NCBI GenBank assembly: GCA_963720565.1
Contig: CAVRFW010000009.1
Span: forward strand, 288,001 to 352,000
Direction: 5' to 3'
Length of the DNA stretch: 64,000 bases
From: Candidatus Bathyarchaeota archaeon
Lineage (GTDB): Archaea; Thermoproteota; Bathyarchaeia; Bathyarchaeales; Bathycorpusculaceae
Part shown: positions 35,040 through 50,211 of the stretch, piece after piece
Layout of the letters: each line of letters starts with the position of its first letter
How positions within the stretch are numbered: the stretch's first letter is position 1
The notes under the pieces: model-generated
Told to the model about the DNA's origin: nothing
Seen by the model: only the letters and a program-made list of their open reading frames with translations
Database searches by the model: none
Made by a program: the position numbers and the translations under genes

Positions 35040-35149
35040 ACCTTCGGAAACCTTCTACAGCGTCAGATATGGTCTTGGCTTAGGGTTAGCAAGATTTATA
35101 CGCTATTAAACTATCACTTTATAAGCCTGAATTTACTATCTATCCAGCC

Positions 35150-36459
35150 GTGAACTCCCCAATGCTGAGCCAGAAAATGTTGAAAGGCGACAAAACCGCT
35201 GAAAAATGGTTATCCGACTTCCCCAAAGACACAACCAAAAGAACCTACCTAAACGCCCTCAACAACTTCAAGAAAATACTGGGAATAGCCGATCTAGGCG
35301 AATACCTCAAAAGCAACCCCGACGCAACAGCCGACTTTAAACGGTTCCTCACAGCATATAACGGCAAGCCAAGCAAAACCGTCGCCACATACTCAGGAGC
35401 CATAAAGATGTTTTTTGAAGACCACAACCTCAAAATTGAACGCGCCGACTGGCGCAAAATGAGGCGACGCGGTTTCATGCCTAAACGCATACGGGCGGAG
35501 ACAAAAGACAGAAGTCCCGACACCCCAAGAGTTAAGGAATATTCTGAAACACGCAGACATCAAATGTCGAGCTATGGTTCTGTTCTTATCAGCAGCGGCG
35601 GAAGAATCGGGAGAGCTTTGCAGTTGAAGGATGAAGACCTCAAGCTTGACGCTGACCCGCCGGAGGTGAATATTCGCAGAGAGTACACTAAAGGTGGGGT
35701 GGGCGGCAGAATCGCTTATTTCAGCTACGAAGCCCGAGACGAGATCAAAGAATGGCTGAAAGTGAGAGACACGACAACCAAACACGACGGAACAGGAACT
35801 TACAAAAGCGACAGAGTTTTTCCCTGAGGATTTTGGAACAGCCCGTTTCATGTTTAACAACGCGGTTAGGAAGGCAAAGCTGGAAAGCCGAGACACCGGA
35901 ACAAACCGCCTAGTTCCTGCACTTGCACAGCCTACGCAAATTCTTCAGAAGCAACATTGGCTTAGACATTGACGTAACACACGCCCTAATGGGACACACT
36001 GAGTATTTGGATGAGGCTTACCTGCGTCTTGAGCAAGACGGTGAAATAGCGAAGGCATACAAAGAAGGCATGGGCAACGTGTCAATTTTCGACAAAGAAG
36101 AACTTGCCCTCAGACAGAGAACTAACGGTCTTGAAGCTGAGAACAGAGAGTTGAAAGAGCGAATAACAAAGATGGAAAGCGAAAAAGATGATTTGCAGAA
36201 TCGCGTGTCAACAACCGAGAACAAATTGTCAGACTTGGAAAGCACCCGCGCTACCATAACGCAGGCCTTTACGGAAAAGAACGCGCAAATCATTGAGGAT
36301 CTTGGGCTACATCGAAGAAGCAGCTTGCGGAGCTGCAGACCGCCTTGGCCATAATTCGAGACGTTGTTCCTTCTGATTTGCTGGTTAGGCTTCAGCTTAA
36401 AAAGCTTCACAGGGAACAGAAAGAAATTCCCGGGGAGCAACGAAGCAAAGAACCAATGA
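35150..36459 (+). CDS. Tyrosine recombinase/integrase with C-terminal coiled coil; several frameshifts
   Basis: SSGGRIG (R), YTKGG (K), HSLRKFF (HxxR), LMGH and DEAYL (Y) spread over ORFs 35150..35827 and 35923..36354. Confidence 0.85.
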
Positions 36460-36591
36460 AACTTCGCGCAGCGAACTGAGAGACACTGATTTCGCGTACG
36501 CTTCAGCGTGGTGGGCTATCCTTTTTCACACACGTTTTTTCCCATGGTTAAATGGTGTTTTCCATAAGTTTCGGCCCGTCTTTTCCCGCAA

Positions 36592-36666
36592 GGATGCACA
36601 GGTATACGAAGGATGGGAGAGGATGGGATGAGGATGCGAAGGATGAGATAAGGACGGGATGGGATG
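36592..36666 (+). repeat. Phased GGATG pentamer array
   Basis: GGATG at 36592, 36611, 36621, 36626, 36632, 36641, 36657, 36662 and GGACG at 36652. Confidence 0.7.
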
Positions 36667-37080
36667 CTACCGCAAAATGAAGCTCTCCGCTTCTTCCTAT
36701 GGTAATTACCGTCGTTTCACATTGTCCTCCTTTATTTTGCTCCTTAGCGAGCGTAAGGAGGAAGCAAGGAGGAACCTCTAGCGTCCATCCTGTACGCGTC
36801 GCATTAACGGTAAGTGCATGCGTTCCGGATCTCCGGCGGCAACCCTCTCTTTCAGTCTGATGGTTCTGACCCATTTGGGTCTAGTCCCTTTCGACCTCGG
36901 ATTTAAATCAAAAAGGGGAAATAAAACAGTACATTGTCGCATACCTATTGAGCGGTTCCTTTCGGCAGCGGCACTTAACCAGGCGTGGAATCACTGGTTC
37001 TGTTGGTTAGGAAAGGAAAAAAGGGAATTGTGGGAGACATCTCCATTTGTTCCAGTTCACATAATCACAGGACGCTTGGT

Positions 37081-37412
37081 TCATGTCTTTCTTTTACGAC
37101 TCGGGCTCCTCAGCGATTCCGCCCATCTCGTGTCTTCTTGAGTTGGTTCCCCCCAGAACCTTTCCAGTTCCTTCTGCGACATGCTCTTCGGAGGGTAATT
37201 TGCGTTGAAGAATCTGCCCTTTCTAGTCACAGGTTTCCAATCGTGCCCTTCCGTGATTGCCAGAATGCCCTTGTAGTCTGAAACTTTGGAGAACGGGTTT
37301 TTGGCTTTAGGGTTCTTCAATTTCGGAATTTCTCTTTTCTTCTGAGACGACTCAAATAGTACTCGATGTCGAGAAGTTTCTTGAACATGTCCTTAAAATC
37401 GGGTTTAGACAT
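37081..37412 (-). CDS. Basic hypothetical protein of the integrated element (one apparent frameshift)
   Basis: MSKPDFKDMFKKLLDIEYYLSRLRRK joins ORF 37081..37320 across a shift. Confidence 0.45.
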
Positions 37413-37610
37413 TTGTAGTAAGTCTTTATCGTTTGTTCAACCTTAGGCTTTTTGAATTGCTAATCAGCGCGTTTTAGAAGCTCCATTCATTTGGTAGATG
37501 TTTTTCGGAATCTGAATGGTTTTTTGGGTTTATTTGTGTTGCAATAAGTGTTTTTAAGTAGCTAATTGACTGTGTTAGTGTTGGTGGTTTTATGGCAATG
37601 CCCACGGTTG

Positions 37611-37798
37611 GAAGGTACAAATCATTCCAATAGAATCAGTAAGATTCCATTTTCAACGGAAAGACTTCCAACGATGGATAAAAGACATCTTTGGAGATAC
37701 AGAACTTGCCGTACAAATGAACAGGATAGAACCAGGGATTATCCGCTGAAGACTTGAGAAAAGAAATTCTCAGTATTGTAAACGCACTTGCAGTTTGA
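37611..37798 (+). pseudogene. 5'-truncated DUF5752-like gene fragment
   Basis: KVQIIPIESVRFHFQRKDFQRWIKDIFGDTELA...EDLRKEIL, similar to the C-terminus of 11576..12097; no N-terminus. Confidence 0.65.
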
Positions 37799-38026
37799 TT
37801 GAGGAGACAGAGCGCACCCAAAAAAAGGGGATTGTGCGGGAGACATCTCAATTTTCAAATGGTTCGAATTCAACGTGTGCCAACCGAGAGCCAACCTTCA
37901 CAACAACTGAGGACTTACCGGTACATGCAACGCAACTACAAAGAAAATAATGGGCATGCGCTGGAAAAAGCCTAAATTCTAGTTCAACGAGGATATTTGA
38001 AAGAAATTGTTAAGGTTGACTTTTCA

Positions 38027-38483
38027 ATGAGTTCCTTGCTGGTAATGGTTTCTTACCATCACAATAACACCGAGAAAATCGCCGAAGTCTTCGCAAGAGT
38101 TCTGGATGCAAAGATAAAAACTCCAACAGAAACAACTGCTGACGAACTTCAACAGCGTGAACTCTTAGGCTTTGGCTCAGGCATATACTTTGGAAAACAC
38201 CACAAAGACCTACTCAAATTTGCCGACAGAATTTCCAAAGTCGACAACAGGAAAGCATTTATCTTCTCGACCAGCGGAGACGGAAGAGGCATTAGGTCGC
38301 ACACCCGCCTTAGGAGAAAACTGGAATCGAAAGGTTACAAAGTTGTAGATGAATTCAGTTGCGCAGGGTTCGATACTTTTGGCTTGATGAAATTCTAGTG
38401 GGGGGTATAAAGAAGGGTAGACCTGCGCTGCGGACCTCGAACAAGCTGAAGAGTTCGCTAAAAAACTGCGTGTTCAATCTTGA
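38027..38483 (+). CDS. Flavodoxin family protein (frameshift near 3' end)
   Basis: SYHHNNTEKIA, GFGSGIYFG, FIFSTSG, FSCAGFDT; C-terminus in another frame. Confidence 0.8.
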
Positions 38484-38569
38484 GTTAGCGCACTAGATTA
38501 ACAGACCGCCTAGTTGAAAGTAATGTTAGTCTATAAGTATCTGAAAAAAGAACATCTCCTCGAGTTCAA

Positions 38570-39010
38570 AGAGAAAGGCGCAATATTTGTCAACACGTTA
38601 TATAATCTTAGGTTTGCAGATGAATTCACCGAACTAGATGTCAGCGAGATCTGGTAGAGCTGGTCGTGGTCAATCTCGGTCAGCGCTCGTGTATGCCACC
38701 ATCACTTGGCTGTCGAAAACGAGTCAGCTAGGGTCCTCGCATCCGATAGTCTTCCTAAAATCGTGCTTTATTGTTGAGTTTGAAAACAGGAGTTCGGCAG
38801 ACCGCTCATCAATAACGGTACCTATGTCGACGAGTTGTAGCATGCCCGAAGTCGGGATATTCCGCTGTTTTCCATCGCTCGGTACAGCAGGTGAAACTGT
38901 TTTGCCCACCTGACAGCGGCAGGTCGCAAGACTCTTCTGTCGACTCCCACGGGTTTAGTGGATCATCGGCTGAAGGATTGGGTTGTCTTGGAACCGTCTT
39001 ATTTTTCCGT
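38570..39010 (-). pseudogene. GH130/PH1107-like glycosidase/phosphorylase N-terminal fragment, heavily frameshifted and truncated
   Basis: Pieces NPILQP, NPWES, HLLYRAM, GCEDP, VAYT recovered across frames. Confidence 0.6.
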
Positions 39011-39013
39011 GTC

Positions 39014-39430
39014 CTAGGAGTTAGTCGAGTGGCGAGCCCGAAAGAGTTGATCATCGAGTCTTCTGACGAGCAAGCAATTCCGACCAGTCCCCTTTTTGCC
39101 ATTCACCCTACAGGCAGGTGTCTTAGTCCCGATGCGAGACGATGATTCCGCCTCGCTTCGTCGAAGCGACGCCGCTTCTCCAATCGTGGCGACGTTTTTG
39201 GTCATCACCTGGTCAATTAGGCGTGTCCAGCGGAGACGTCGTTGGCTAACTATTCTTATGGCATCTCGCTCGGTGAAGATCCACCACACACTTCTTGGTG
39301 CTCTGTCCGTTACTGATACAGTTGAGCGCACGTGTTTTTCTTGCAGTATTTTGATGGCGTCTCTGCGACCGTGATGTTGGGCTTTGATGTTACCACCACT
39401 CTTCTCATTATTATGTGCTTTACCATTAGC
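39014..39430 (-). pseudogene. CBS-pair protein, many indels
   Basis: MVKHIMRRVVVT...IFTERDAIRIV...IDQVMTKNVATI...RHLPV across frames. Confidence 0.7.
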
Positions 39431-39541
39431 ACGTCTGTTTCGCCTCTGATGTTTAGTCTTGTTTTTCTTGGATTTATAAGGCGAACGACTGTTTAAAGAT
39501 TCACAATAGGCACTAGAGCAGAGAGACTTCCGAGCTACGAA

Positions 39542-40619
39542 TCAAGAACGGTTCGATTGCTGTGGCGTGCGAGTGGCAATTGGCAGTTTGATTGACGTGC
39601 AGAGAGGTAGCAGACAGTTGCTTCGGCTCCCATGGTTGAGGTTGAGTCCCTTCCTCGGTTATTCCATCGTAGCAGCCGCCTGTTGTCGCGTTGTAAACGG
39701 AGGCGCTTTTGGTGTGTTTATCCCCAGAAACCAGTTGAAGATGGTCCTGCGCGATTGTTTTGTAGTGAAGGTTGTTGTTTGCGCGGCAAGCTGACAGCGC
39801 TAGCTTCCGTCATAGAAAGCTGCTTCCGCCGATTGCTGATCGTACATCGACCGTGGTTCTCCTTTTAGCAGTACCAGCTCTCGTTTCCGATAGGCACGAA
39901 TGACTCGTCTCAGCAATCTGGACTTGTAAGGAGGAACTGCAGCGTTTCCTCCGCGGCGTGAATGCATTTTGTCTGTTTTGTTTCTCGGTAAGCCTCAAAG
40001 AGAGCTTGCGGAAGCCTGCCGTTCTCGTACGTGAGGTAAGGCTCAAACCAGCGCCAGCCGCGGGAACGCGACGTCCCGGCAGTATTTGAGCAAGTCTGTC
40101 TGAAAGTGCTTTTATGTTCTCAGTCAGGTTGCGGTCTCGGTGTAGGCCCTGCGGTAATGCCTGAGGCCAAAGTATTGCGAAAGGCTCGCGCTCGTCGGAG
40201 ATTTGAAGAAACATGCCCAGCGAAAGGCTTTGTCGAAGATTTCTTTTGCCAAGTCGTTTCTTTTCAGCTCGGGCAGTCCGCTGTTTATGACGTATCCACA
40301 AGCCCAAAAGGGTGCGAGCTGCACAGTCTTCGGAGGCTTCCTCGTCAAGGAAGTTTCGGTCGTAGCTTAGGAAGTTGTGCATCTTGCCGTCTGCTCTCTG
40401 CATGTGCAAGAGGAAGCTTAGGTACGTGTCTATCAACGTGTCAGATTGATGAGTTGCTCTGATTTGGCTGTGCTTGGCGACAGCTATGAGGGCGCGCGCG
40501 TTGTCGTCGGTTGTGTATCCTTCAAGCCGGTTTGGCGTTCCGAATTTTGTGTGCTGAAAGACACCGGTGTCATCTGTGATTGCTTCGAGGAAGTCTAGCT
40601 TGATAGGTGGGAGTTTCAT
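39542..40619 (-). pseudogene. (alpha/alpha)6 glycosidase-like partner of GT4, many indels
   Basis: TDDTGVFQH, GYTTDDNARAL, MHNFLSYDR, FNWFLG, TGGCYDG motifs. Confidence 0.75.
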
Positions 40620-40634
40620 GATATAGGGGCCCTC

Positions 40635-41813
40635 TTAAGCGTGGATAGCTTGCTTGAATATGTTGTGTATTTTTTTGCGACTTTTGGCCACGTGAAGCTT
40701 CGATCCCCGGTACCTGTAACTTTCTTCTCCATGTCTCTTCTCAGTTCTTTGTTTTCCAAGAGTCTTCCTCACTTCTATGGTGATTGAGTCCGGGTTCCTG
40801 AACTCGCAGAGCAAGCCTCGCCCGTGAGACAGCACCTCTTTAGCGTGAAGGTAAGGAGTTGACACGACCGCTCTGCCAGCCCTGAAAGCGTAGACCAGAG
40901 TGCCGCTGCTGATTTGGTTTGCGCCGAGGTAGGGGCGTGAGGTAGACGTCGGTAGCTTGGAGATATTTTATCAATTCCCTTTTTGCGAGGAAGCGGTTGT
41001 GAAATCTTACGTGGTTCTTTAGCCCCAGTTGGTCGACCAGTTTGACGAGGTTGACGCGGTAGGTTTCGCCTTCGATTTTTCTGACCTCAGGGTGTGTTTC
41101 GCTGATCACGAGGTAGAGTATGTTTGGGTACTTCTCTACCATCGGCGGGAGCGCGTGGAGAACGTCCTGATGCCTTGCCCGCGTTCATCAGGCCAAACGT
41201 AGACAAGACGATTCTTCCTTTCAGGAACCCAGCGAGGGCTTTACGCTGTCACTGGTCACAAACGGAATGTCTGGGCAGCCGTGTTGGACTACGTTGATCT
41301 TGTCGTTTGAGCCGTCGCATTCGGCTTGAGCCTGTTCCCGCCGCTTTTGCCATGACTACGATCGCGTCTGGCTTCGAGCGAGGATTTCTTCAGAGTACGT
41401 TTGGCCTTTGATTCGAAGTCGGGTTGCACCGTGTGGAGTGTAGTGATGACCGGTTTTTGCACGTTTTGCAGGAAGGAGAGGACGTACTTTCCCGATTCGC
41501 CTCCGTATATTCCAAATTCGTGTTGAAGATTAACTGCGTTGATTCGTGATGAGTTGATGTAAGTGGCAGCTTGAATGTAATCTTCTTCGAAATCCTGTCT
41601 TATCTGTTGTTTGACCCTGCTGTCGTAATCGTAGATCGTGTCTATTTCATTCACGGCTATGACTCGGGCTGGTGCGAATTCATCGAGGAGATCCACAGAG
41701 TCGACTAGGTCTTTGGTGAAAGTGGCTATTCCGCACTCTCTTGGAACGTATGTCCCTAGAATAAAGGCAATGTATTTTTTGTTTGATTCTGGAATTCCGG
41801 GTTTTGCGAACAA
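40635..41813 (-). pseudogene. GT4 family glycosyltransferase, many indels
   Basis: TYVPRECGIATFT, LQHEFGIYGG, ITTLHTV, ETHPEV, STPYLHAKEVL over three or more ORFs. Confidence 0.8.
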
Positions 41814-42026
41814 TTTCTCACATTACCTTGGCTGGATTTGGCGTTAGTACAAGAAATCGGTTGAATTTCTGCTTGAAAACGCCTTTGTTTATTAATAATT
41901 GTTCGCCACTAAAAAATCTGGTGCTTGTTGCTGTTGTTCTATTATTTGACAAGTGAATAGCACGTTATCAAATTAGCGCGCGTTGGTAGACACAGCAGAT
42001 TCTGTTGGGTTTGAACCAGTAGGTTA

Positions 42027-42209
42027 CTACTCGTGTCCTCTTGTTTCATGGTGCATTGTATCTCGGTGTCTCTCCATCTCCGAGTTGGTTTTGAAGGTTT
42101 TGCCGCAGACTGGACAAGGAATCTGGCTTGGTTCTACTCCCCTCACTGGTATCTCTTGAGACGACGGCGCCCCCAACGTGTGAGGCTGATGAGGTTTCTT
42201 GTCACTCAT
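42027..42209 (-). CDS. Small C2H2 zinc-finger protein
   Basis: CPVCGKTFKTNSEMERHRDTMH. Confidence 0.8.
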   Translation of the reverse strand: MSDKKPHQPHTLGAPSSQEIPVRGVEPSQIPCPVCGKTFKTNSEMERHRDTMHHETRGHE

Positions 42210-42619
42210 AACTTACACCTAAACACTCTACTAGCTGGTTCAAGCTTTCTTAAATATATGTGACTGTAGCGAGACAATGACAAAGTCACCTTTGTTTCAA
42301 GACTCGAGTGGCACGCGTGTGTGTTCCTAAATTCGCTTTAGAGTGAGTCTGATACCTCTCCATGGGATGAGCGAGCGCAGGAGAAGAACAACAACACCCA
42401 TTTTTTTCCGAAACACACAACCGTTTTTCTTTCACACATTCTTCCGAGTTATTTTAGCGCGCGCTCGGGTTTGCCCTCTTTAAACGCGGCTAATATGCAT
42501 CTTTCAGAGAAGCCCATTTCAAGCTCTAAATACCAAAATCTGACTTATCACCATTTTTAACCAATTTCGGGACAGGGCAGCGCGCGCTTATTATTTACGT
42601 AATGAGACCTAAGCTATAA

Positions 42620-43781
42620 TTACGTCAACGGAAATCTTCGCCTTAAATAGTCCTTTGCGAATTCGCGGTCATGTGATAATTCTTTGCTTTTCACAATTTG
42701 GCCCTCAAGCCTATCCAAAGCTACCCTAAACGTCTGTTCCACACCGAATCCCTCACCTGAACTGAAAAACGAGCCCTTCCTCGTTCTGAATTGCAGTCGA
42801 CAGTGAATCAACTGATCACCCTTGAAGGGGGTGCCATGCGTCTTGAAGTAGACAAATAGCGTGCCCGATTCCAATTTTTCTCCGTATCTGTGGGTGAAAG
42901 ATTCGAAGTCACCCATAATGAAGCCTCGTTGGGATTCATCAATCTCCACGTCTTTAACAGAAAACTGCACAGTAAGCCTTTGCACTGGCTGCTCCATCTG
43001 AGCTAAAGGTTCAAGAAAATCCCGTTTAGTTATGATGCCGACAGGTCTTCCTTTGCTGACGATTACCAAAGAGGAAATGTTGAATTTGTGCATTTGCTCT
43101 TCAGCATCTCGCAATTTGGTTTCAGGCAAGACAGTGACCACGGGTTTCACCATTATACCCTTCGCCGGAATACTCAGAACAGGAACTTTCTCGCCTACTC
43201 TTTCGCCAACCCTTTGCACCTGTCTAGGCTGAAAGACAATCTCAATAATATCGGAAATACTTACGATTCCCACGAGTTTTCCTTCTCTGACTATCGGCAG
43301 GTGAGAGATTCCCTCGCGTCTGAAAAGGCTTAGCACCGCCCCTAGCGATTCGTCTTCTTCGATGATGAACGGCTTCTTGGTCATTATCTCTTCAACACGG
43401 GTATTGCCCCATTGCTCATTTACGGCTCCATGGATAACGTCCTCATCGGTAATGAACCCCAAGAGTTTCTCTCCGCTGTAGACTGGGAGTTGCCTAGTTT
43501 CGCTCTCAATCATCAACTTAGCGACCTTGCTGAGAGAATCCTGCAGGGTAACAGCAGGGGCTGGGCGCATCAAAGTCTTGACTTTGGTTCCTGAAGCATC
43601 AAGACTAGACCGTATTATCGATTTGCGAGAAATGACCCCTTTGTACCTGCCTTCATTATCCAATACCGCTAAAACAGGCGGCGTCTCTTTCTTGAAAAAG
43701 TGATAGACAAGAAGAAAGTGTATCGTTCTCATGAACTTCTAAAAAGCCTTTTGAAAAAACATCTTCCACAACCTTAACCAT
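42620..43781 (-). CDS. Four-CBS-domain protein with C-terminal HPF/RaiA-like domain (candidate ribosome hibernation factor); one frameshift near the start
   Basis: True start MVKVVEDVF at 43781; CBS repeats; C-terminal ...IHCRLQFRTRKGSFFSSGEGFGVEQTFRVALDRLEGQI resembles HPF/RaiA. Confidence 0.8.
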
Positions 43782-43918
43782 AGAAACCACTTCAGCAGTA
43801 TCAGTCTCATGGCGTAATTTAAGCATTGAAAGGATAAAGTTGCAGCCTTTTTTCGGAAAATAGGCAACAGTAACGCATGAATTAGCAAAGGGGGGAAGTC
43901 ATAATAAGCGCGCGCCAA

Positions 43919-43955
43919 ATAGTAACACATAGTAATTCATAGTAAAATATAGTAA
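43919..43955 (+). repeat. Four ATAGTAA direct repeats at 10-bp period (candidate operator)
   Basis: ATAGTAAcac ATAGTAAttc ATAGTAAaat ATAGTAA, followed by gtattaa. Confidence 0.75.
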
Positions 43956-43988
43956 CATGTATTAAACCGCGTACCCAAATACTAATCC

Positions 43989-44144
43989 ATGAAAACACTA
44001 AAAATAACTGAACAAACCCACCAAGAACTAACCCGAATCAAAGGCGCCGTCACGCAAAGAACCGGCACAGAAACCACATACGACGAAGCCATCCAAGAAC
44101 TGATAGCAGTATGGATTCTAAAACATCAAGCATCCGGGCAGTAA
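43989..44144 (+). CDS. Small ribbon-helix-helix / antitoxin-like DNA-binding protein (51 aa, below ORF-track cutoff)
   Basis: MKTLKITEQTHQELTRIKGAVTQRTGTETTYDEAIQELIAVWILKHQASGQ*; alternating beta strand plus two helices. Confidence 0.75.
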   Translation: MKTLKITEQTHQELTRIKGAVTQRTGTETTYDEAIQELIAVWILKHQASGQ

Positions 44145-44316
44145 TTGTGTACTATACTATTGAGAACCCCCAACCGTAAACGCGGGCTGACGGGCTTCAC
44201 ACAAACATTTTCTTTAGGCACTAATCACTTGAAACTCAAATTTCATTAGCGCGCCTATGTGAAGTCGGTTAATTAACCTTTCTTCTTTTCATTCTATTCC
44301 CCATTTCTCTTTTCAT

Positions 44317-44442
44317 TCTTCCTCGTCCTAAAGGATGGGCACGCGCCTATTCGCTGACAAAGCAGCACTATGGCTACGCATCCAGACCCTCCTCAATCGC
44401 GCTAACGTCCACACCCAAGAGACAGCGCTAAAACGAGGAAGA
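44317..44442 (-). ncRNA. Candidate bridge/seek RNA of the IS110 element
   Basis: Perfect 10-bp closing stem (44317-44326/44433-44442); internal 13-mer identical to 45481-45493 and 9-mer identical to 44250-44258. Confidence 0.75.
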
Positions 44443-44444
44443 GT

Positions 44445-45438
44445 TCAGGCCTGATCGTAATACGGACGCTTATTCTTCAACACAGAAAAACTGCACAACA
44501 ACAGCTTCCTGGCAGCAGCCACCACCGCAACCTTCTTCCCCTTCCTCTCAGCAATCCGACTATACGCTCGAGTAATCGACGTGTCGTACTTGTGAACATG
44601 AGTCTGAGCAGCCTCAACCATCACCCAACGCAGCCAACGACTACCCTCCTTCGTAATGTTGCCATGCCAAACGGTTCTTCCAGAAGCATGCGTGGAAGGC
44701 AACAAGCCCAGCGTAACTGCAAAGCCTCTCGGGAAAAGGAAACCGGTTAACATCTCCAATCTCACTCTTCACTAGAACCGCCGAGTAATAGCCGATTCCC
44801 GGAATAGTCATCAACAACTTAACATCCTCATCACCCTCAGCTATCCCAACAAGCTCATTAGAAAGAAGCTTAATTTCCTCGTCCAACGGTTCGAGAATTC
44901 GCAAGTAACACTCGATCGAATCAATGTTCAAACCACGCAGCCACTCAACGCCTTTCTTCGTGAACAAGCCACTGATCGGAAGGCCACTTCAAACCCTCAT
45001 GCGTCAAGACGCTTTTGATTTTCACTCTGAGCTTAACGCGTGTCCCTCACTAGGAAAGCTCTACGCCTAACCTTCTCTCGGAGGTTAGCGATTTCTCCAG
45101 TCGGAAAGTAAGCCAACGGCAAAGCGTCCAGCCTGACGAGTTCAGCTATGGCTTTAGAGTCTACTCGGTCGCTTTTAATTTTAGCCTCAGCGATGTAGCG
45201 GGTCTTCTTCGGATGAGAAACCACAACGTCATATCCCTTACTGAGTCAGCTGCCTGAACAGCGGTGCGATCTGGTTGGAAGATTCCATTCCGACCTTGGA
45301 GACTTTGAAGTGCGACAGATACGGCAGTACTCTTTCATTTTCCATTCTTGTTTGGTTAACTATCTTTCCTTCAGGGTTCAAAATTGTCGCATAAGTGCTG
45401 TCCTTATGCACGTCCAACCCGCAAACGAAGGCGCTCAT
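44445..45438 (-). CDS. IS110 DEDD recombinase/transposase, about 4 frameshifts
   Basis: MSAFVCGLDVHKD, KIKSDRVDS, TIPGIG, SYAGL..STHASG, GSRWLRWVMVEAA, AAARKL. Confidence 0.9.
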
Positions 45439-45640
45439 AACATGGCGTGAGCGCCTCTTGCGTAAAACACTTCCCATACCATCGCGCTAACGTAGTTACG
45501 GTGAAGATGCAAGCGTGTTATATTATGTCTTTTATCGATTTCACTTGTTTAACCTAAAAAATAGATCGCAAAAACCATAAGTGAAAAAGAGATACCTATT
45601 AGGTAACGAATCTATAAGAGAACTAGTTATGAAGCAAGGG

Positions 45641-45750
45641 ATCGATATGCTCCAAGGTCGAATACCTAGCGACATATTCATACGTCAATATTGGAGTCCT
45701 AAGTTAAACAGCTTAGAGATAAGACCTACATAGCATCAAAGGAGCTAGAC
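45641..45750 (+). pseudogene. C-terminal remnant of an archaeal tyrosine integrase
   Basis: IDMLQGRIPSDIFIRQYWSPKL resembles the QGR...RHY catalytic-Tyr region of SSV1-like integrases. Confidence 0.55.
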
Positions 45751-45899
45751 AGTACAACAACAGATCAGGCAGTTCAGTAAAATAACCCGAGTTTCTTTCT
45801 ATTCTCTATTATTTTAGAATATCAATCTGTGATCTAATCAATATTGACACATCCACATGCTTAAATATTCAGTGCAGAAAGATATCTTATGGATATAGA

Positions 45900-46420
45900 A
45901 TGTCAGAAATAAACAAGAGAAAAAACATAAAGGTAGAGTCTAAGGCTATAGATAAAGAGCTAGAGAAACTTAAGAAAGAGCTATTCGCCGATATTGTATC
46001 AGTGGAATCAGTGGAATCAATTAAGACTAGGAGGAAAAGAAGAGAACCCAAGTACTCTATGGTGGCTGAGGCTATCAAGCTAGTAAGCTAAGATGTCAAG
46101 GAATGCCTATAGACTTAACTTGGAGAAAGTGTTCCAATTAGAGAACTATAGTAAGCTAGGTCCGAAAGAGAAGAGCGCACTGGTTAGAAGGGTCTATCGC
46201 AATACTTGATCGATACCTAAAGGAGTTTGCTCGTGCACATGGCTATGATCTATCTAAGAAAGAATTGAAAAAGAACAGAGCAGGAAATGAAATCATCATT
46301 AAGGGAGTTAAGATGGCTACACTTCCAGAGTACACTAGATTTAAGAAAGAAACTATCAGTATGAGACTAGTTGGATCTGATATCTACCTAATCAAGCAGA
46401 GTGATATGCCAATTGAATGA
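45900..46420 (+). CDS. Basic hypothetical protein with atypical composition; frameshifted
   Basis: ORF 45900..46091 continues across shifts to ...SMRLVGSDIYLIKQSDMPIE-TGA(46418-46420). Confidence 0.5.
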
Positions 46421-46458
46421 ACATATTAGCGCGCGCGTTATATATTGGTGAGTAGAGA

Positions 46459-47291
46459 ATGTTAAACGATGAAAACACGGACCTCCTGCTGGGTTTGGGC
46501 TTGAGTCCTAATCAAGCAAAAGTCTACCAAACCATACTTAAATTAGGTTCCGCTACCGTCAGGGATGATAGCGAAATCTTCTGCAGTGCGCAGGGAAGAT
46601 GTGTACAGGATTTTGCCAGCACTTGAAAGGATGGGATTAACAGAAAAACTGCTAGGCAAGCAGCTTACGATTCGGAGCAATGCTCCCTGTCGCTGGCGCT
46701 TTGACTTCATTGATAGTTGATGAAAAAGTTAAATCGGATGAAAGAATAGCCACGATGAAAGAGAAATTCCGAAAATTGGTCAAAGTGAAATGGACACAAC
46801 CCGTTAGTTTGGGTAAAGAAGAAAGTCTCTATGCACTGATACCGGAGGGCAAAGCAATTCTGGCTAAAACCTCCGACTTAATTGTTAACTCAAAAAAGGA
46901 AATTTTCTGGATTGAAAATCAAGGAGAAATCCTGCGTAGTTTATACAATTCTTCTAAGGAGTACGTGGGTGCGATCCGCAGAGATGTGATTGTTCGGATG
47001 ATTTTCGAAGATTGCAGGCCAGATGATCTACTAAGAAAACAGGTGCAATCTCTAATAAACAACAAATCCACTCTTGTCAGGTTTCACCGTCAACTTCTGA
47101 ACCGCTTCATGGTTTTTGATAGCAAAGAAGCGTTGATTACAACCGATAGAAAAAGTGGCTTAACAGAAGCCCCAGTATTATGGACGACTGACAACAACCT
47201 TATCGGCGTGCTAAAAGGATATTTTGAGAATTCATGGAAAGAATCTGAAGAACTGATACAAAACAAGCCACTTCCAAATGACAAACAGTAG
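46459..47291 (+). CDS. TrmB-family transcriptional regulator; frameshifted
   Basis: LGLSPNQAKVYQTILKLG...VRREDVYRILPALERMGL; C-terminal FMVFDSKEALI...YFENSW. Confidence 0.8.
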
Positions 47292-47351
47292 TGCCTCACG
47301 GGTCTTCTCAAAAATAGCGCGTGGTTATTCAAAAACTCAGTTTAGGACGCG

Positions 47352-48618
47352 CAGGCAAGTTAAATAATTGTTTTGCTTCTCGCAGCAGTGCTTCTAACAT
47401 GTCATTTCCCAAGGGTTCTTGAGAGACATTCGCTTTGAATCTCTCCCAAAGACCACTCGACGACTGAAGATTAGCTTCTTGAAAACACTCGTGACCCCTT
47501 CAGAATCGTGGCTCACGCTATTTTACCCTCCAGTTTAATCCCCAGCTTTCAAGCAAAATACGCTATGCTGTACCGAAGCTCCGGTCTCCCAATGAAGGCA
47601 GCCGCAATAGCGACGGCGTAGACCAAGCAGAACGCAAGACACGTGTGTATGCAGGCGTTCCAGAGTCCCTGCCAAGTCAATCTACCATACGCCAGACGAG
47701 ATTTCACCCTACCGTTCAAGCTTTCAGATTTCGCCCTCAACATCTTGTAGACAACGCGAAGGTGCTCAGGGCCCTCAACGTCAATGCGATCCTTCACAGA
47801 AAGCACGTCCGAAGGGTTCACCCGGCCCCTCAAACGCCTCCACGCAATGACATCGTCTATCTTCCTGGCTTGAAGCGCATCAAACACTTGACCGGATTCG
47901 AACTGGCTGTCACCAGCGACCAGCTCCACTTCAATGTCTTCTCCAAGCAACCTGTCCAGCAAAGGCTCCACAAGCAGCTTCTCGTTGACGTTGGCTGGAG
48001 CTTCCACGTGGCCAAGCGGGAAGCCCTCGATGTCCACGAGAAACAGAGACTGGTAGCCCAGAACGAAGCCTTTCTTTCCTCTTCCAAGCCTGGCGTCAGG
48101 GTCGCCGAGGCCTCGGCTCGTGTCGTGTGGGTCTCGGCTGCTTCAGGCTGGAAGGTCGGTGCCGTCCACACATGCCGCTTGAACTAAGCCGACGGCAGAT
48201 AGAGGTTGGCTTTCTCTGAGTCTTAGGGCTTCGTGTCGCAGCCACTTCTCTATGGCGCGGAAGCCTTCTGGGCCTATGCGTTTCTTCATCTGGGAGAAGT
48301 GGGCTTCGGTTGGTACTTTGTTGTTGTATCCGCAGGCGGAACGCATTTCTTTGTTTCTTCTGAGGCGTTTGACTAGGTCTTTGATGTAGGGTATCTGTTC
48401 CAGTTGACGTAGCATAAGCGCTCGCAGGTCACACGCCGGATCATACTCGACTGGTCGCCCTGCGCCCTCGAAGTGTAGGCCTTTCCAGAGGATGGAGTGG
48501 AGAGGTTTTAAATTCAAGTTTTCGAATAGAAGGGTTGGAGAACCTGATCTCTCCATTTCTCATCAAAATAGCGAGGTCAGGCTCTCCTAATATAACTTTG
48601 AATTATTTAATCCGCCTG
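47352..48618 (-). mobile_element. DDE insertion sequence (IS5/IS1182-like)
   Basis: 18-bp terminal inverted repeats CAGGCnnnTTAAATAATT (47352-47369 / 48601-48618, 15/18 match) flanked by CGCG (47348-47351, 48619-48622). Confidence 0.85.
47549..48556 (-). CDS. DDE transposase, frameshift near 48140
   Basis: GAGRP, ACGY..VPTEAHFS, VDGTDLPA, AGDSQF, RAKSESLNGRVK. Confidence 0.85.
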
Positions 48619-49331
48619 CGCGCGCCTTGGAAGATAGTCTAGAAGTAGTGAAAAAATTGTTGAGAAAACCAGTGGATTTGATGATGCCCGAAGTATGGAT
48701 TACTACCTTAAAGAGTTGTGTAAGGGCAAGGTGAATGAGTGCAAAAATGTGTTCCAAAATTGGGTTGATACCGAGAAAAATACTGTGTTTAAGTTCAGGG
48801 CGCAAAGAATACTTCAACTTCTCGAGACAAATCAATGCATGTTTCCACCTAATAGGGCTAATTGATAACTGCCTTACGGTACTGTTATCTATCGTTCTTT
48901 CTGATACGCTACTTCCACCCAGAACTCCTTACAAATGGCGATTTAAAGAAGAAGTGATAGGAAAAGAAAACTGCAAAGTCTTTACCTTAGTTGCCCGTCA
49001 GCTGTATCCTCCTGGGGGACTCTATATCAAGTCCAGCATAGTGGAAATGCTTCAAAAGGGGCAGATGAAAAAAACCGGAGAATTTCAACGGCTTATCAAT
49101 TACCTTCAAAATTTGTAGCCCGTGCGCGCTACTCGTCTAAGAATGGACGGTAACAAATCACTTTCGAAGGCCCTGAAAATGGATAATTATGTTGAGGAGA
49201 TCGGTGAGGAGTTCTCGGAAGATTAAGCCGAGATCGTAAACGTGACGTTCTCAAGTAGCTGCAAGACATCTACCTTTAGCAGAGCAAAATCTTTTAGGCG
49301 CGGTGACTATGTACTGTTTGGAGACTTTTGT

Positions 49332-49538
49332 ATGCCTTTTTGGAAGAATGATGATCCAAAGAAGAAGGCTGAAGAAGCAGCCAAGAAGACCGCTGAAGAA
49401 GCTAAGAAAGCAGCCGAAGAAACCGCTGATAAAGCTAAGAAAGCAGCCGAAGAAACCGCTGATAAAGCTAAGAAAGCAGCCGAAAAAACCGCTGAAGAAG
49501 CTAAAAAAGCAGCCAATAAAGCAAAAGAGAAAATGTAA
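49332..49538 (+). CDS. LEA group-3-like 11-mer repeat protein (68 aa)
   Basis: MPFWKNDDPKKK then TAEEAKKAAEE / TADKAKKAAEE repeats encoded by 33-bp tandem repeats. Confidence 0.75.
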   Translation: MPFWKNDDPKKKAEEAAKKTAEEAKKAAEETADKAKKAAEETADKAKKAAEKTAEEAKKAANKAKEKM

Positions 49539-50211
49539 CAAAGCATCTGCGTCTTTATTTTCCTCTCTTTTCTTTTAGGAGCTCACAGTCAACCCAACAG
49601 TTAAGCGCGCGCTTGCGTTACTGGAAGACGCCTTTTAAGGTCCTTCCAAGTGAGTTTATCGTTGAGAAGGGAGAACGGAACAAGAAGAGTTGACGAGTGT
49701 CAACCAAGCGTTGTGCGACCATTCGAAACAGAGGCGTTATACTCAGAAGCAGTTTGACATTCTGAACGGTTTTGATCTGATTGAGACGAGATGCCTCAAC
49801 TGTCACAAGATTCTGGATTTGGCCATTAGCAAGATTAATGCGTGCGCGTCTCCCCAATAGCACTCTGCAGCCAGCAGGCGTCTTTCAACTTCAGAAAGTC
49901 TATTGCTCGCTGGTTTCCAGCTTTGGCGCGCGCGCTTTGGGATGAGAAGCCTGATGGTTAGTGCGTACTATCGAAAACATTAAATGCCTTATCCAGAACA
50001 TAATGTGCGGCGGAAGACCTCAGATCATGGAATCTTGGGGGAAACTTGGACTGAACGCCCAGAAAAATAGTAAAAAAGGGCGGGTAAAGCGCAAGTTTAC
50101 CATGAAATACCAAGATTTATATGAACGAAGGGCACTTCTCCAAGTGAAAAGTTCCCCATAACATGTGCAAAAAGCACGTGGGTTTATGGAGGAACTTAAC
50201 CGAAGGGAGAT

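What the first reader, a model, noticed from the sequence alone, without database searches (positions are those of the whole stretch)
41973..49935. Cassette-like gene array delimited by short (CG)n palindromes
Seen: nine GCGCGC runs plus two IS junction half-sites in ~8 kb, almost all intergenic; I noticed only one such intergenic run elsewhere (11023). They bracket single genes: 41973/42454 C2H2; 42579/43905 CBS-HPF; 43905/44246 RHH; 45483/46426 foreign gene; 46426/47315 TrmB; 49124/49603 LEA; 49603/49925 gene-less. Both IS elements sit inside such motifs, and the IS110 RNA is programmed for TTAGCGCG. No attC boxes are seen. Inference: the motif is a shared recombination site at which gene modules are gained, lost or flipped, plausibly by the RNA-guided IS110 recombinase or the flanking tyrosine recombinase, giving an integron-like system without attC. 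Alternatives: regulator or chromatin-protein sites, or Z-DNA-prone spacers that merely attract IS.
Basis: partly seen in the sequence, partly recalled or inferred. Interest (0 to 1): 0.8.

Follow-up and report, generated by a model that had tools for sequence, protein, structure and literature searches.

The report
Transposon tip scars in archaeal island
The short GC repeats between these genes are marks left by a family of jumping genes in a sediment archaeon; they sit where DNA has been cut and rejoined, and a second, RNA-guided jumping gene has learned to aim at them.

Summary
The runs are real and form the densest cluster in the genome (8 runs ≥7 bp in 8 kb; mean 0.7), but they are not local. 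GCGCGCGC is the genome's most over-represented 8-mer, mostly non-coding, and it marks homology breakpoints (18 of 513 repeat ends, 0.6 expected). The stretch lies in a 15-kb island (35087-50121). Its tyrosine integrase has an A/T-rich att site, not the GC motif, and no integron integrase was found.

The best-supported source is a Bathyarchaeia DDE insertion-sequence family (IS1182/IS5-like). Its members, MITEs and a 480-bp mini-element carry a GC run against their terminal inverted repeats (both tips in 14 of 19 complete copies). Lone runs are most likely collapsed element tips, later reused as landing sites and joints. The IS110 is an IS1111-type tenant: its guide matches TTAGCG-CG-CGCTAA and changes with the target in 11 of 11 relatives that show a left junction. 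Whether the run is element tip or duplicated target is unresolved.

The scan noted this scar family before in another Bathyarchaeia genome (e1-6513232); my paper searches found no description. Verdict: breakpoints right, integron mechanism not supported; new variant of a known kind.

The parts
35087..35100 (+). attL of the 15-kb island (TAGCAAGATTTATA)
   Evidence: 13/14 direct repeat with 50108-50121; single copy in G002 where the flanks are adjacent; X1 loose end at 50111 equals window 35064-35090
35150..36354 (+). Tyrosine integrase of the island, split in two ORFs in this assembly; not an IntI
   Evidence: (XerA_Arch 29.8 bits for the first ORF, below cut-off)
38624..41981 (.). Glycosyltransferase-containing block found elsewhere in G002 (85% identical); homology ends exactly in the run at 41976
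   Evidence: weak glycosyltransferase hit
41976..41982 (.). GC run (7 bp), breakpoint against G002
42027..42209 (-). C2H2 zinc-finger gene
   Evidence: PF00096 over cut-off
42311..42455 (.). MITE, left tip decayed, right end cut at the 42457 run; 20 matches in G002 and 12 in G004, intact copies have GCGCGC at both tips
42457..42464 (.). GC run (8 bp) joining the truncated MITE to the truncated mini-element
42467..42587 (-). Remnant of a ~480-bp non-autonomous element (TIRs, GC-run tips, 122-aa winged-helix gene with Cys-rich tail), including its tip run 42580-42587
42620..43826 (-). CBS-domain gene (N-terminus in another frame in this assembly); 7 homolog loci in relatives lack flanking runs
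43908..43915 (.). GC run (8 bp); G002 homology of the next module starts here
43989..44144 (+). 51-aa gene, no family hit; module 43904-44153 is 94% identical to a different locus in G002
44252..45484 (-). IS1111-type IS110 element, transposase in four pieces in this assembly; core CG at both ends, sub-terminal IRs (9/10), empty site TTAGCG-CG-CGCTAA
   Evidence: intact relative L030 passes NF033542
44255..44444 (-). 3' non-coding region (predicted seekRNA/bridge RNA): target guides at 44426-44433 and 44398-44405, donor guide at 44342-44351
45490..46420 (+). Module with unassigned small ORFs; also on a depth-115 contig in run X6
46429..46437 (.). GC run (9 bp)
46459..47291 (+). TrmB-family regulator, in pieces in this assembly
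47348..48625 (-). DDE insertion sequence (DUF772 + DDE_Tnp_1; 336 codons with one in-frame TGA), TIRs 47348-47369 and 48601-48622, GC runs of 5 and 8 bp at the tips
49124..49129 (.). GC run (6 bp)
49242..49538 (+). ORF with 11-residue Lys/Ala/Glu repeats (LEA-like by appearance only)
   Evidence: no Pfam or NCBIfam hit
49605..49612 (.). GC run (8 bp); joined in inverted orientation to the 42580 run in an X6 contig
49666..49860 (+). Small Cys/His-containing gene, 55% identical to a C12 gene
49926..49935 (.). GC run (10 bp) between short direct repeats (GCTTTG); a DDE IS end is joined here in X1 and X4 contigs
50108..50121 (+). attR of the island, upstream of ssb

Best explanation
The runs are marks of a Bathyarchaeia family of short DDE insertion sequences and their non-autonomous derivatives. 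SHOWN: these elements have a (GC)n run, usually GCGCGC, directly against each terminal inverted repeat, and lone runs sit at deletion, replacement and inversion junctions. INFERRED: the run is at least partly the element's own tip. Because GCGCGC is its own reverse complement, the two inverted tips are also direct repeats, so short-repeat deletion can remove the element and leave one run. Runs then act as preferred landing sites for new copies and as microhomology joints between distant runs. Over time this fragments an integrase-delivered island, where selection is weak, into gene-sized pieces that look like cassettes. The IS1111-type IS110 is a later tenant: its RNA guide is set to the TTA-flanked 8-bp run, as other IS1111 members are set to REPs, attC sites or transposon ends.
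For: Complete family members: run >=4 bp at both tips in 14 of 19, at one or both in 18 of 19, across TIR types whose transposases are down to 26-32% identical. 81 TIR matches in 80 metagenome loci: 63 have a run >=5 bp, mode 6. Mini-element ends: 25 of 32 motif matches have a run >=5 bp. MITE tips. Repeat ends within 10 bp of a run >=8: 18 of 513 vs 0.6 expected; five control palindromes 0-3 vs 1.3-2.6. Against G002, only 8 of 40 runs >=8 with any homology are collinear, vs 135 of 180 random sites (Fisher p 1e-10). Runs arise de novo: most intact paralogs show only C or GC at the break; a G004 8-bp run marks a 1.39-kb deletion whose intact allele has GCG on one side only; C2:62153 is a 12-bp in-frame insertion, TGGTAC-GCGCGC-TGGTAC, in a gene intact in G002. 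Run lengths are bimodal in 240 kb of G021 (6:51, 7:24, 8:27, 9:31), the genome with most family matches (10) and most runs (439). All 9 of 41 genomes without GCGCGCGC lack a family match. 4 of 13 joints in public contigs involve runs or adjacent tips. Precedent for short-repeat deletion collapsing an archaeal element to its ends: PMC3119063 (passages).
Against: No clean filled/empty pair of one insertion was found, so tip versus target duplication is unresolved. Direct repeats around runs are rare (7 of 478 runs >=6 bp vs about 2.3 by shuffle), and none of the 7 paired metagenome elements shows an outer duplication. Five run-rich genomes have no family match (G018 227, G030 53, G023 51, G004 34, G039 19), and several with a match have <=6 runs. 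The genome-level link (medians 6 vs 1, p 0.004) is confounded by kinship; Ku presence correlates too (p 0.011). The joints were laid at 88% likeness and two have only 21-23 letters on the short side. The single transposase of this family in G000 has an in-frame stop, so present activity is not shown. Some breakpoints lack a run (48890, 44153). 12 of 40 runs show a break within 12 bp, while 20 of 40 have one-sided homology ending further off.
Confidence: 0.62

Rival explanations
1. Same DDE family, classical route: the element targets GCGC, duplicates 4 bp, has only GC at its tip, and cut-and-paste excision with blunt rejoining leaves the doubled target GCGCGCGC as a footprint.
For: GCGCGCGC far outnumbers CGCGCGCG among 8-bp runs (45 vs 10 in G000, 24 vs 3 in G021). 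Tip pairs of 6/6 and 6/8 fit targets of 4 and 6 bp. Only 6 bp separate abutting elements. G000 has Ku beside two LigD-like ORFs.
Against: No +4 insertion among collinear runs (7 of 7 protein-linked runs >=8 had net change 0). Intact homologs mostly lack GCGC at breakpoints. Ku was not found in the four relatives richest in runs besides G000 (G021, G018, G030, G023; 94-100% complete) and is present in G040, which has 1 run.
Confidence: 0.22
2. One reading: a dedicated site-specific system in which the tyrosine recombinase or the RNA-guided IS110 excises, inserts and flips modules motif-by-motif, an integron without attC.
For: Run-to-run joints exist (42590 to 49601 inverted, 42455 to 42579). 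Two modules recur elsewhere in G002 with homology ending in a run. TTA-flanked runs, the IS110 target, are 3 of 9 in the island vs 12 of 185 genome-wide (p 0.017, uncorrected).
Against: The integrase att site is A/T-rich. No IntI. No binding arms or flank symmetry. Mixed gene orientation. One IS110 copy. 9 of 14 IS110 relatives carry other guides. CBS homologs in 7 loci lack flanking runs. No go-back (circle) joint was listed, though contigs cannot show absence.
Confidence: 0.08
3. The run is a host repeat (regulator or chromatin site, HIP1-like methylation-linked palindrome, Z-DNA spacer) that merely attracts insertion sequences.
For: Top 8-mer genome-wide, non-coding bias. Two unrelated IS families sit in it.
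Against: Depleted in collinear DNA and concentrated at breaks. No fixed distance to start codons (14-1903 bp). Counts vary from 0 to 439 within one family. Appears de novo inside a gene. Tips decay by point change between sister genomes.
Confidence: 0.08

Closest known systems
IS1182-family insertion sequences, e.g. IS1272 (PMC5678879: abstract and section 22 read)
   Same: DUF772 + DDE architecture; best NCBIfam hit is IS1182; TIRs; insertion without an outer target duplication, with palindromic DNA involved
   Different: Below the family cut-off (68 and 177 vs 270 bits); transposase 324-350 aa vs a 488-position model; IS1272 replaces host hairpins, whereas here a fixed GC repeat lies at both tips and lone copies mark junctions; no flank symmetry
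IS1111-family elements targeting REP (ISPa11), attC (ISKpn4, ISPst6) or Tn21 TIRs (IS4321, IS5075) (PMC11187229: passages read)
   Same: 3' non-coding region, sub-terminal IRs, two short guides matching both target strands in the IS1111 order, natural reprogramming, aiming at a repeated site
   Different: Archaeal; the target is an 8-bp dinucleotide run or the tip of another IS family; sub-terminal IR is 10 bp (9 matching) rather than 11-13
Repeat-mediated deletion and deletion-coupled insertion in Haloquadratum walsbyi (PMC3119063: passages read)
   Same: Short direct repeats collapse elements to their ends; unrelated DNA replaces host DNA at one position
   Different: There the repeats are varied and leave no common mark; here one self-complementary motif recurs at the junctions
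Integrons/CALINs in archaea (10.1101/2022.02.06.479319: passages read)
   Same: Row of short genes separated by a repeated motif next to a tyrosine recombinase
   Different: No IntI, no attC-size site, mixed orientation; the recombinase has its own att site
HIP1 of cyanobacteria (abstract listings only)
   Same: An over-represented palindromic octamer linked to recombination
   Different: HIP1 is described as hyper-abundant and conserved; these runs are sparse, non-coding and lineage-variable

Membership tests
Integron / CALIN | IntI tyrosine recombinase with the IntI-specific domain | tested here: not met
   best TIGR02249 hit 27.7 bits vs cut-off 265, on another contig; genome 89% complete
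Integron / CALIN | attC sites (paired R and L boxes, foldable bottom strand) between cassettes | tested here: inconclusive
   No repeat family between modules beyond the run, no conserved flanks, no Rfam match; no dedicated attC model was run
Integron / CALIN | Cassette genes mostly in one orientation | tested here: not met
   C2H2 and CBS on -, others on +
Xer/dif-type module system | Conserved inverted binding arms around a short spacer | tested here: not met
   only an A at -1 is enriched; symmetry equals shuffles in three genomes
Tyrosine-integrase genomic island | Integrase at one end, direct att repeats, single att in empty relatives | tested here: met
IS1182 family | DUF772 + DDE domain with D-D-E triad | tested here: met
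   (invariant D132, D217, E279)
IS1182 family | NCBIfam NF033551 above cut-off, full length | tested here: not met
   67.6 and 177 bits vs 270; IS5 models also below cut-off
IS1182 family | Terminal inverted repeats | tested here: met
IS1182 family | Target rule (duplication or hairpin replacement) defined from an empty site | tested here: inconclusive
   No clean filled/empty pair
IS1111 group of IS110 | DEDD and Transposase_20 domains | tested here: met
   intact relative passes NF033542
IS1111 group of IS110 | Long non-coding region downstream of tnp | tested here: met
   about 190 bp
IS1111 group of IS110 | Sub-terminal inverted repeats, usually 11-13 bp | tested here: inconclusive
   10 bp with 9 matches (read); no phylogeny was built
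IS1111 group of IS110 | Guides matching both target strands and changing with the target | tested here: met
   left guide 6-8 of 8 in 11 of 11 elements with a left junction; five guide classes in 14 elements
IS1111 group of IS110 | RNA expressed and bound by the transposase | not testable with these tools
   No RNA holder listed
HIP1-like repeat | Cognate methyltransferase and methylated motif | not tested
   No methylome available; no methyltransferase search was run

The most novel reading that the evidence does not exclude
A transposon family with self-complementary GC tips seeds Bathyarchaeia genomes with a universal short joint. The joint is reused for orientation-free deletion, inversion and capture of gene-sized modules, giving cassette-like plasticity with no integrase. 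An RNA-guided IS1111 clade has evolved to track these joints and may itself help shuffle at the TTA-flanked ones.
Probability: 0.25. Interest if true: 0.8.

Novelty: new variant of a known kind. Interest (0 to 1): 0.55.

Why it matters
If right, a fixed 6-10 bp mark records past transposition and rearrangement in one of the most widespread archaeal groups. That makes genome flux countable in uncultured lineages (0 to 439 marks per genome). It would add an unusual end and target chemistry to prokaryotic DDE elements. It also supplies a natural archaeal series of IS1111 guides (five specificities on an ~70-80% identical scaffold), one of them aimed at another element's tips or scars, which is useful for reading guide-target rules.

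Tried and rejected
Ku/LigD end-joining as the maker of the runs: G000 has Ku, but it was found in only 8 of 41 genomes and not in the run-richest relatives; rejected as a requirement.

+4 footprints: none in nucleotide or protein-level comparisons. Only about 250 kb of G004 (~1.2 Mb) was compared with 1.49 Mb of G002, at ~86% identity, so power is low.

Palindromic flanks as in hairpin targeting: equal to shuffles. Promoter element: no fixed spacing to start codons. TIRs on the gene modules: by eye only the CBS module has a 7-bp inward repeat; its homologs lack it.

Named relatives of the DDE transposase: only 27%-identity ISNCY hits in plasmids; no solved relative. PF01609 search of the own genome missed the split copy, so family counts from single searches are lower bounds. 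Seek/bridge RNA fold was not clearly better than shuffles (z -1.7). No RNA holder listed.

Paper searches with no description of this family or motif: (open-licence library only; ISfinder not searchable; no supplements read, and those of PMC11187229 may list archaeal targets). PMC11529989 passages were not relevant.
Full report
Setting. The window is G000:C9:288001-352000. Close relatives of its IS110 are named Bathyarchaeia. Many genes, including core ones, are split by frameshifts, so broken frames may be assembly errors.

Observation. Ten GCGCGC-containing runs lie in 41976-49935. This is the densest 8-kb cluster in the genome: 8 runs of 7 bp or more against a mean of 0.71. The motif is genome-wide: GCGCGCGC is the most over-represented 8-mer (176 vs 29, both strands). 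Runs of 8 bp or more number 87 against 18-34 simulated, and only 18 of 87 lie in ORFs of 150 aa or more, against 70-84% of control hexamer palindromes. The last 5 kb of C9, which looks GC-rich and foreign, was left out of these counts. Among 41 relatives the count runs from 0 to 439.

The island. In sister genome G002 the DNA left of 35100 and right of 50108 is adjacent. The 15-kb insert is bounded by a 14-bp A/T-rich repeat that is single in G002, and a contig end in run X1 shows the same empty junction. A tyrosine integrase begins 50 bp inside the left repeat. So the recombinase has its own att site, unrelated to the GC motif, and it is not an IntI.

Runs are breakpoints. In a self-comparison, 18 of 513 repeat ends lie within 10 bp of a run of 8 bp or more (0.6 expected); five control palindromes give 0-3. 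Against G002, 47 of 87 such runs have no homology. Of the other 40, 8 are collinear, 12 break within 12 bp and 20 are one-sided, whereas 75-82% of controls are collinear. Two island modules recur at other loci of G002 with homology ending in the runs at 41976 and 43908. In four public runs, 4 of 13 joints involve runs or adjacent tips, 7 lie inside the two IS and 2 in the ssb region. The best are 42590 to 49601 inverted (46 letters on the short side) and an IS end to 49933 (112 and 69 letters, two studies). They were laid at 88% likeness, so some may come from other organisms.

The agent. The DDE element at 47348-48625 belongs to a family found in 26 of 151 genomes with one query. Its complete copies have a GC run against both TIRs in 14 of 19 cases and against at least one in 18 of 19, across several TIR types and down to 26-32% protein identity. 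In metagenomes 63 of 81 TIR matches abut a run of 5 bp or more (80 of at least 126 loci examined). Two pieces of the 'array' are themselves derivatives. One is a MITE with 32 matches in G002 and G004, whose intact copies have GCGCGC at both tips. The other is a 480-bp element with a winged-helix gene and several TIR types, one of them shared with the IS. The protein has DUF772 and DDE_Tnp_1 domains and an invariant D-D-E. It is nearest to IS1182 but below every family cut-off. It works like an IS1182/IS5-type element; membership is not shown.

Where lone runs come from. They appear de novo. Intact paralogs mostly show only C or GC at the break. An 8-bp run in G004 marks a 1.39-kb deletion. One gene carries a 12-bp in-frame insertion made of GCGCGC between two copies of a 6-bp stretch, and the run at 49926 has a similar layout. 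Run lengths in G021 are bimodal. I infer that the run is at least partly the element's tip, and that tip-to-tip deletion leaves it behind, as short-repeat deletion collapses elements in Haloquadratum (PMC3119063, passages). Against this: flanking repeats are rare (7 of 478), no clean filled/empty pair was found, and five run-rich genomes have no family match. The classical alternative, a duplicated GCGC target rejoined after excision, fits the length pattern but found no +4 allele, and Ku is not required. Both readings make the DDE family the source (together about 0.84).

The IS110. It has a 3' non-coding region and short sub-terminal repeats, as described for IS1111 (PMC11187229, passages). 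Across 14 related elements there are five guide classes. The left guide matches the left flank at 6-8 of 8 bases in all 11 with a left junction, and the other guide follows the right flank. With a CG core the empty site here is TTAGCG-CG-CGCTAA, an 8-bp run; in L029 the element sits on the tip of the mini-element. Five of the 14 carry this guide. A mild excess of TTA-flanked runs in the island (3 of 9 vs 12 of 185, p 0.017 uncorrected) leaves room for a contribution.

Known context. Integron features were not met (IntI, orientation; definitions from 10.1101/2022.02.06.479319, passages). IS1272 offers a precedent for insertion without duplication at palindromes (PMC5678879, abstract and section 22). 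HIP1 was seen as abstract listings only. Searches found no description of this family's GC tips. An earlier scan note on another genome reached the same general reading. I had written down the DDE-scar idea before seeing it; it gave me the IS1272 paper, and it is not independent support.

Verdict. Real feature, breakpoint claim upheld, integron mechanism not supported. New variant of a known kind; interest 0.55.

Noticed in passing
window 44140-44168; G000 C13:29303, C13:71489, C12:109514: A 27-bp sequence repeated at 3 other loci; G002 homology of the 43904-44153 module ends inside it. Possibly the att site of another integrating element.
   Followed up: no
L106:213-578; G000 C8:7615-8099, C12:91132-91611, C13:137287-137769: Mini-element gene: 122-aa winged helix with Cys-rich tail, kept across several TIR types. 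Atlas neighbours are unnamed ArsR-like clusters, mostly Bathyarchaeota; Lrs14/Sta1 hits below cut-off. A conserved passenger on a non-autonomous element may have a role in its movement.
   Followed up: partly
window 35087-35100 / 50108-50121: The island integrates in a TATA-like stretch upstream of the ssb gene rather than in a tRNA gene.
   Followed up: partly
G000 C3:159621-163157 (L303): Ku with two LigD-like ORFs; Ku found in 8 of 41 relatives, including all five genomes of the genus.
   Followed up: partly
L114-L119 (G018): Runs of 10-14 bp with none of 8-9 bp in 97 kb, 227 GCGCGCGC matches genome-wide, and no match to the DDE profile: perhaps a related family with longer tips.
   Followed up: no
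window 45490-46407: This module lies on a contig of depth 115 in run X6 while neighbours are near 10: multicopy there or from another abundant organism. No homolog in G000 or the loci held.
   Followed up: no
window 48890-49073: 97% identical to the end of contig C13; the junction at 48890 has no GC run.
   Followed up: no
window 37010-37062, 37820-37869, 37616-37807: Short repeats shared with C10, C7, C2 and G002/G004 inside the island's left part; possibly remnants of other small elements.
   Followed up: no
window 43919-43965: Four 10-bp tandem copies just upstream of the 51-aa gene, operator-like.
   Followed up: no
G000 C9:500000-505321: GC-rich tail of the contig unlike the rest of the genome, possibly contamination; left out of counts.
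   Followed up: no
L031: An IS110 with the same TTAGCGCG guide in a record titled Promethearchaeati archaeon: transfer to Asgard archaea or mis-binning.
   Followed up: no
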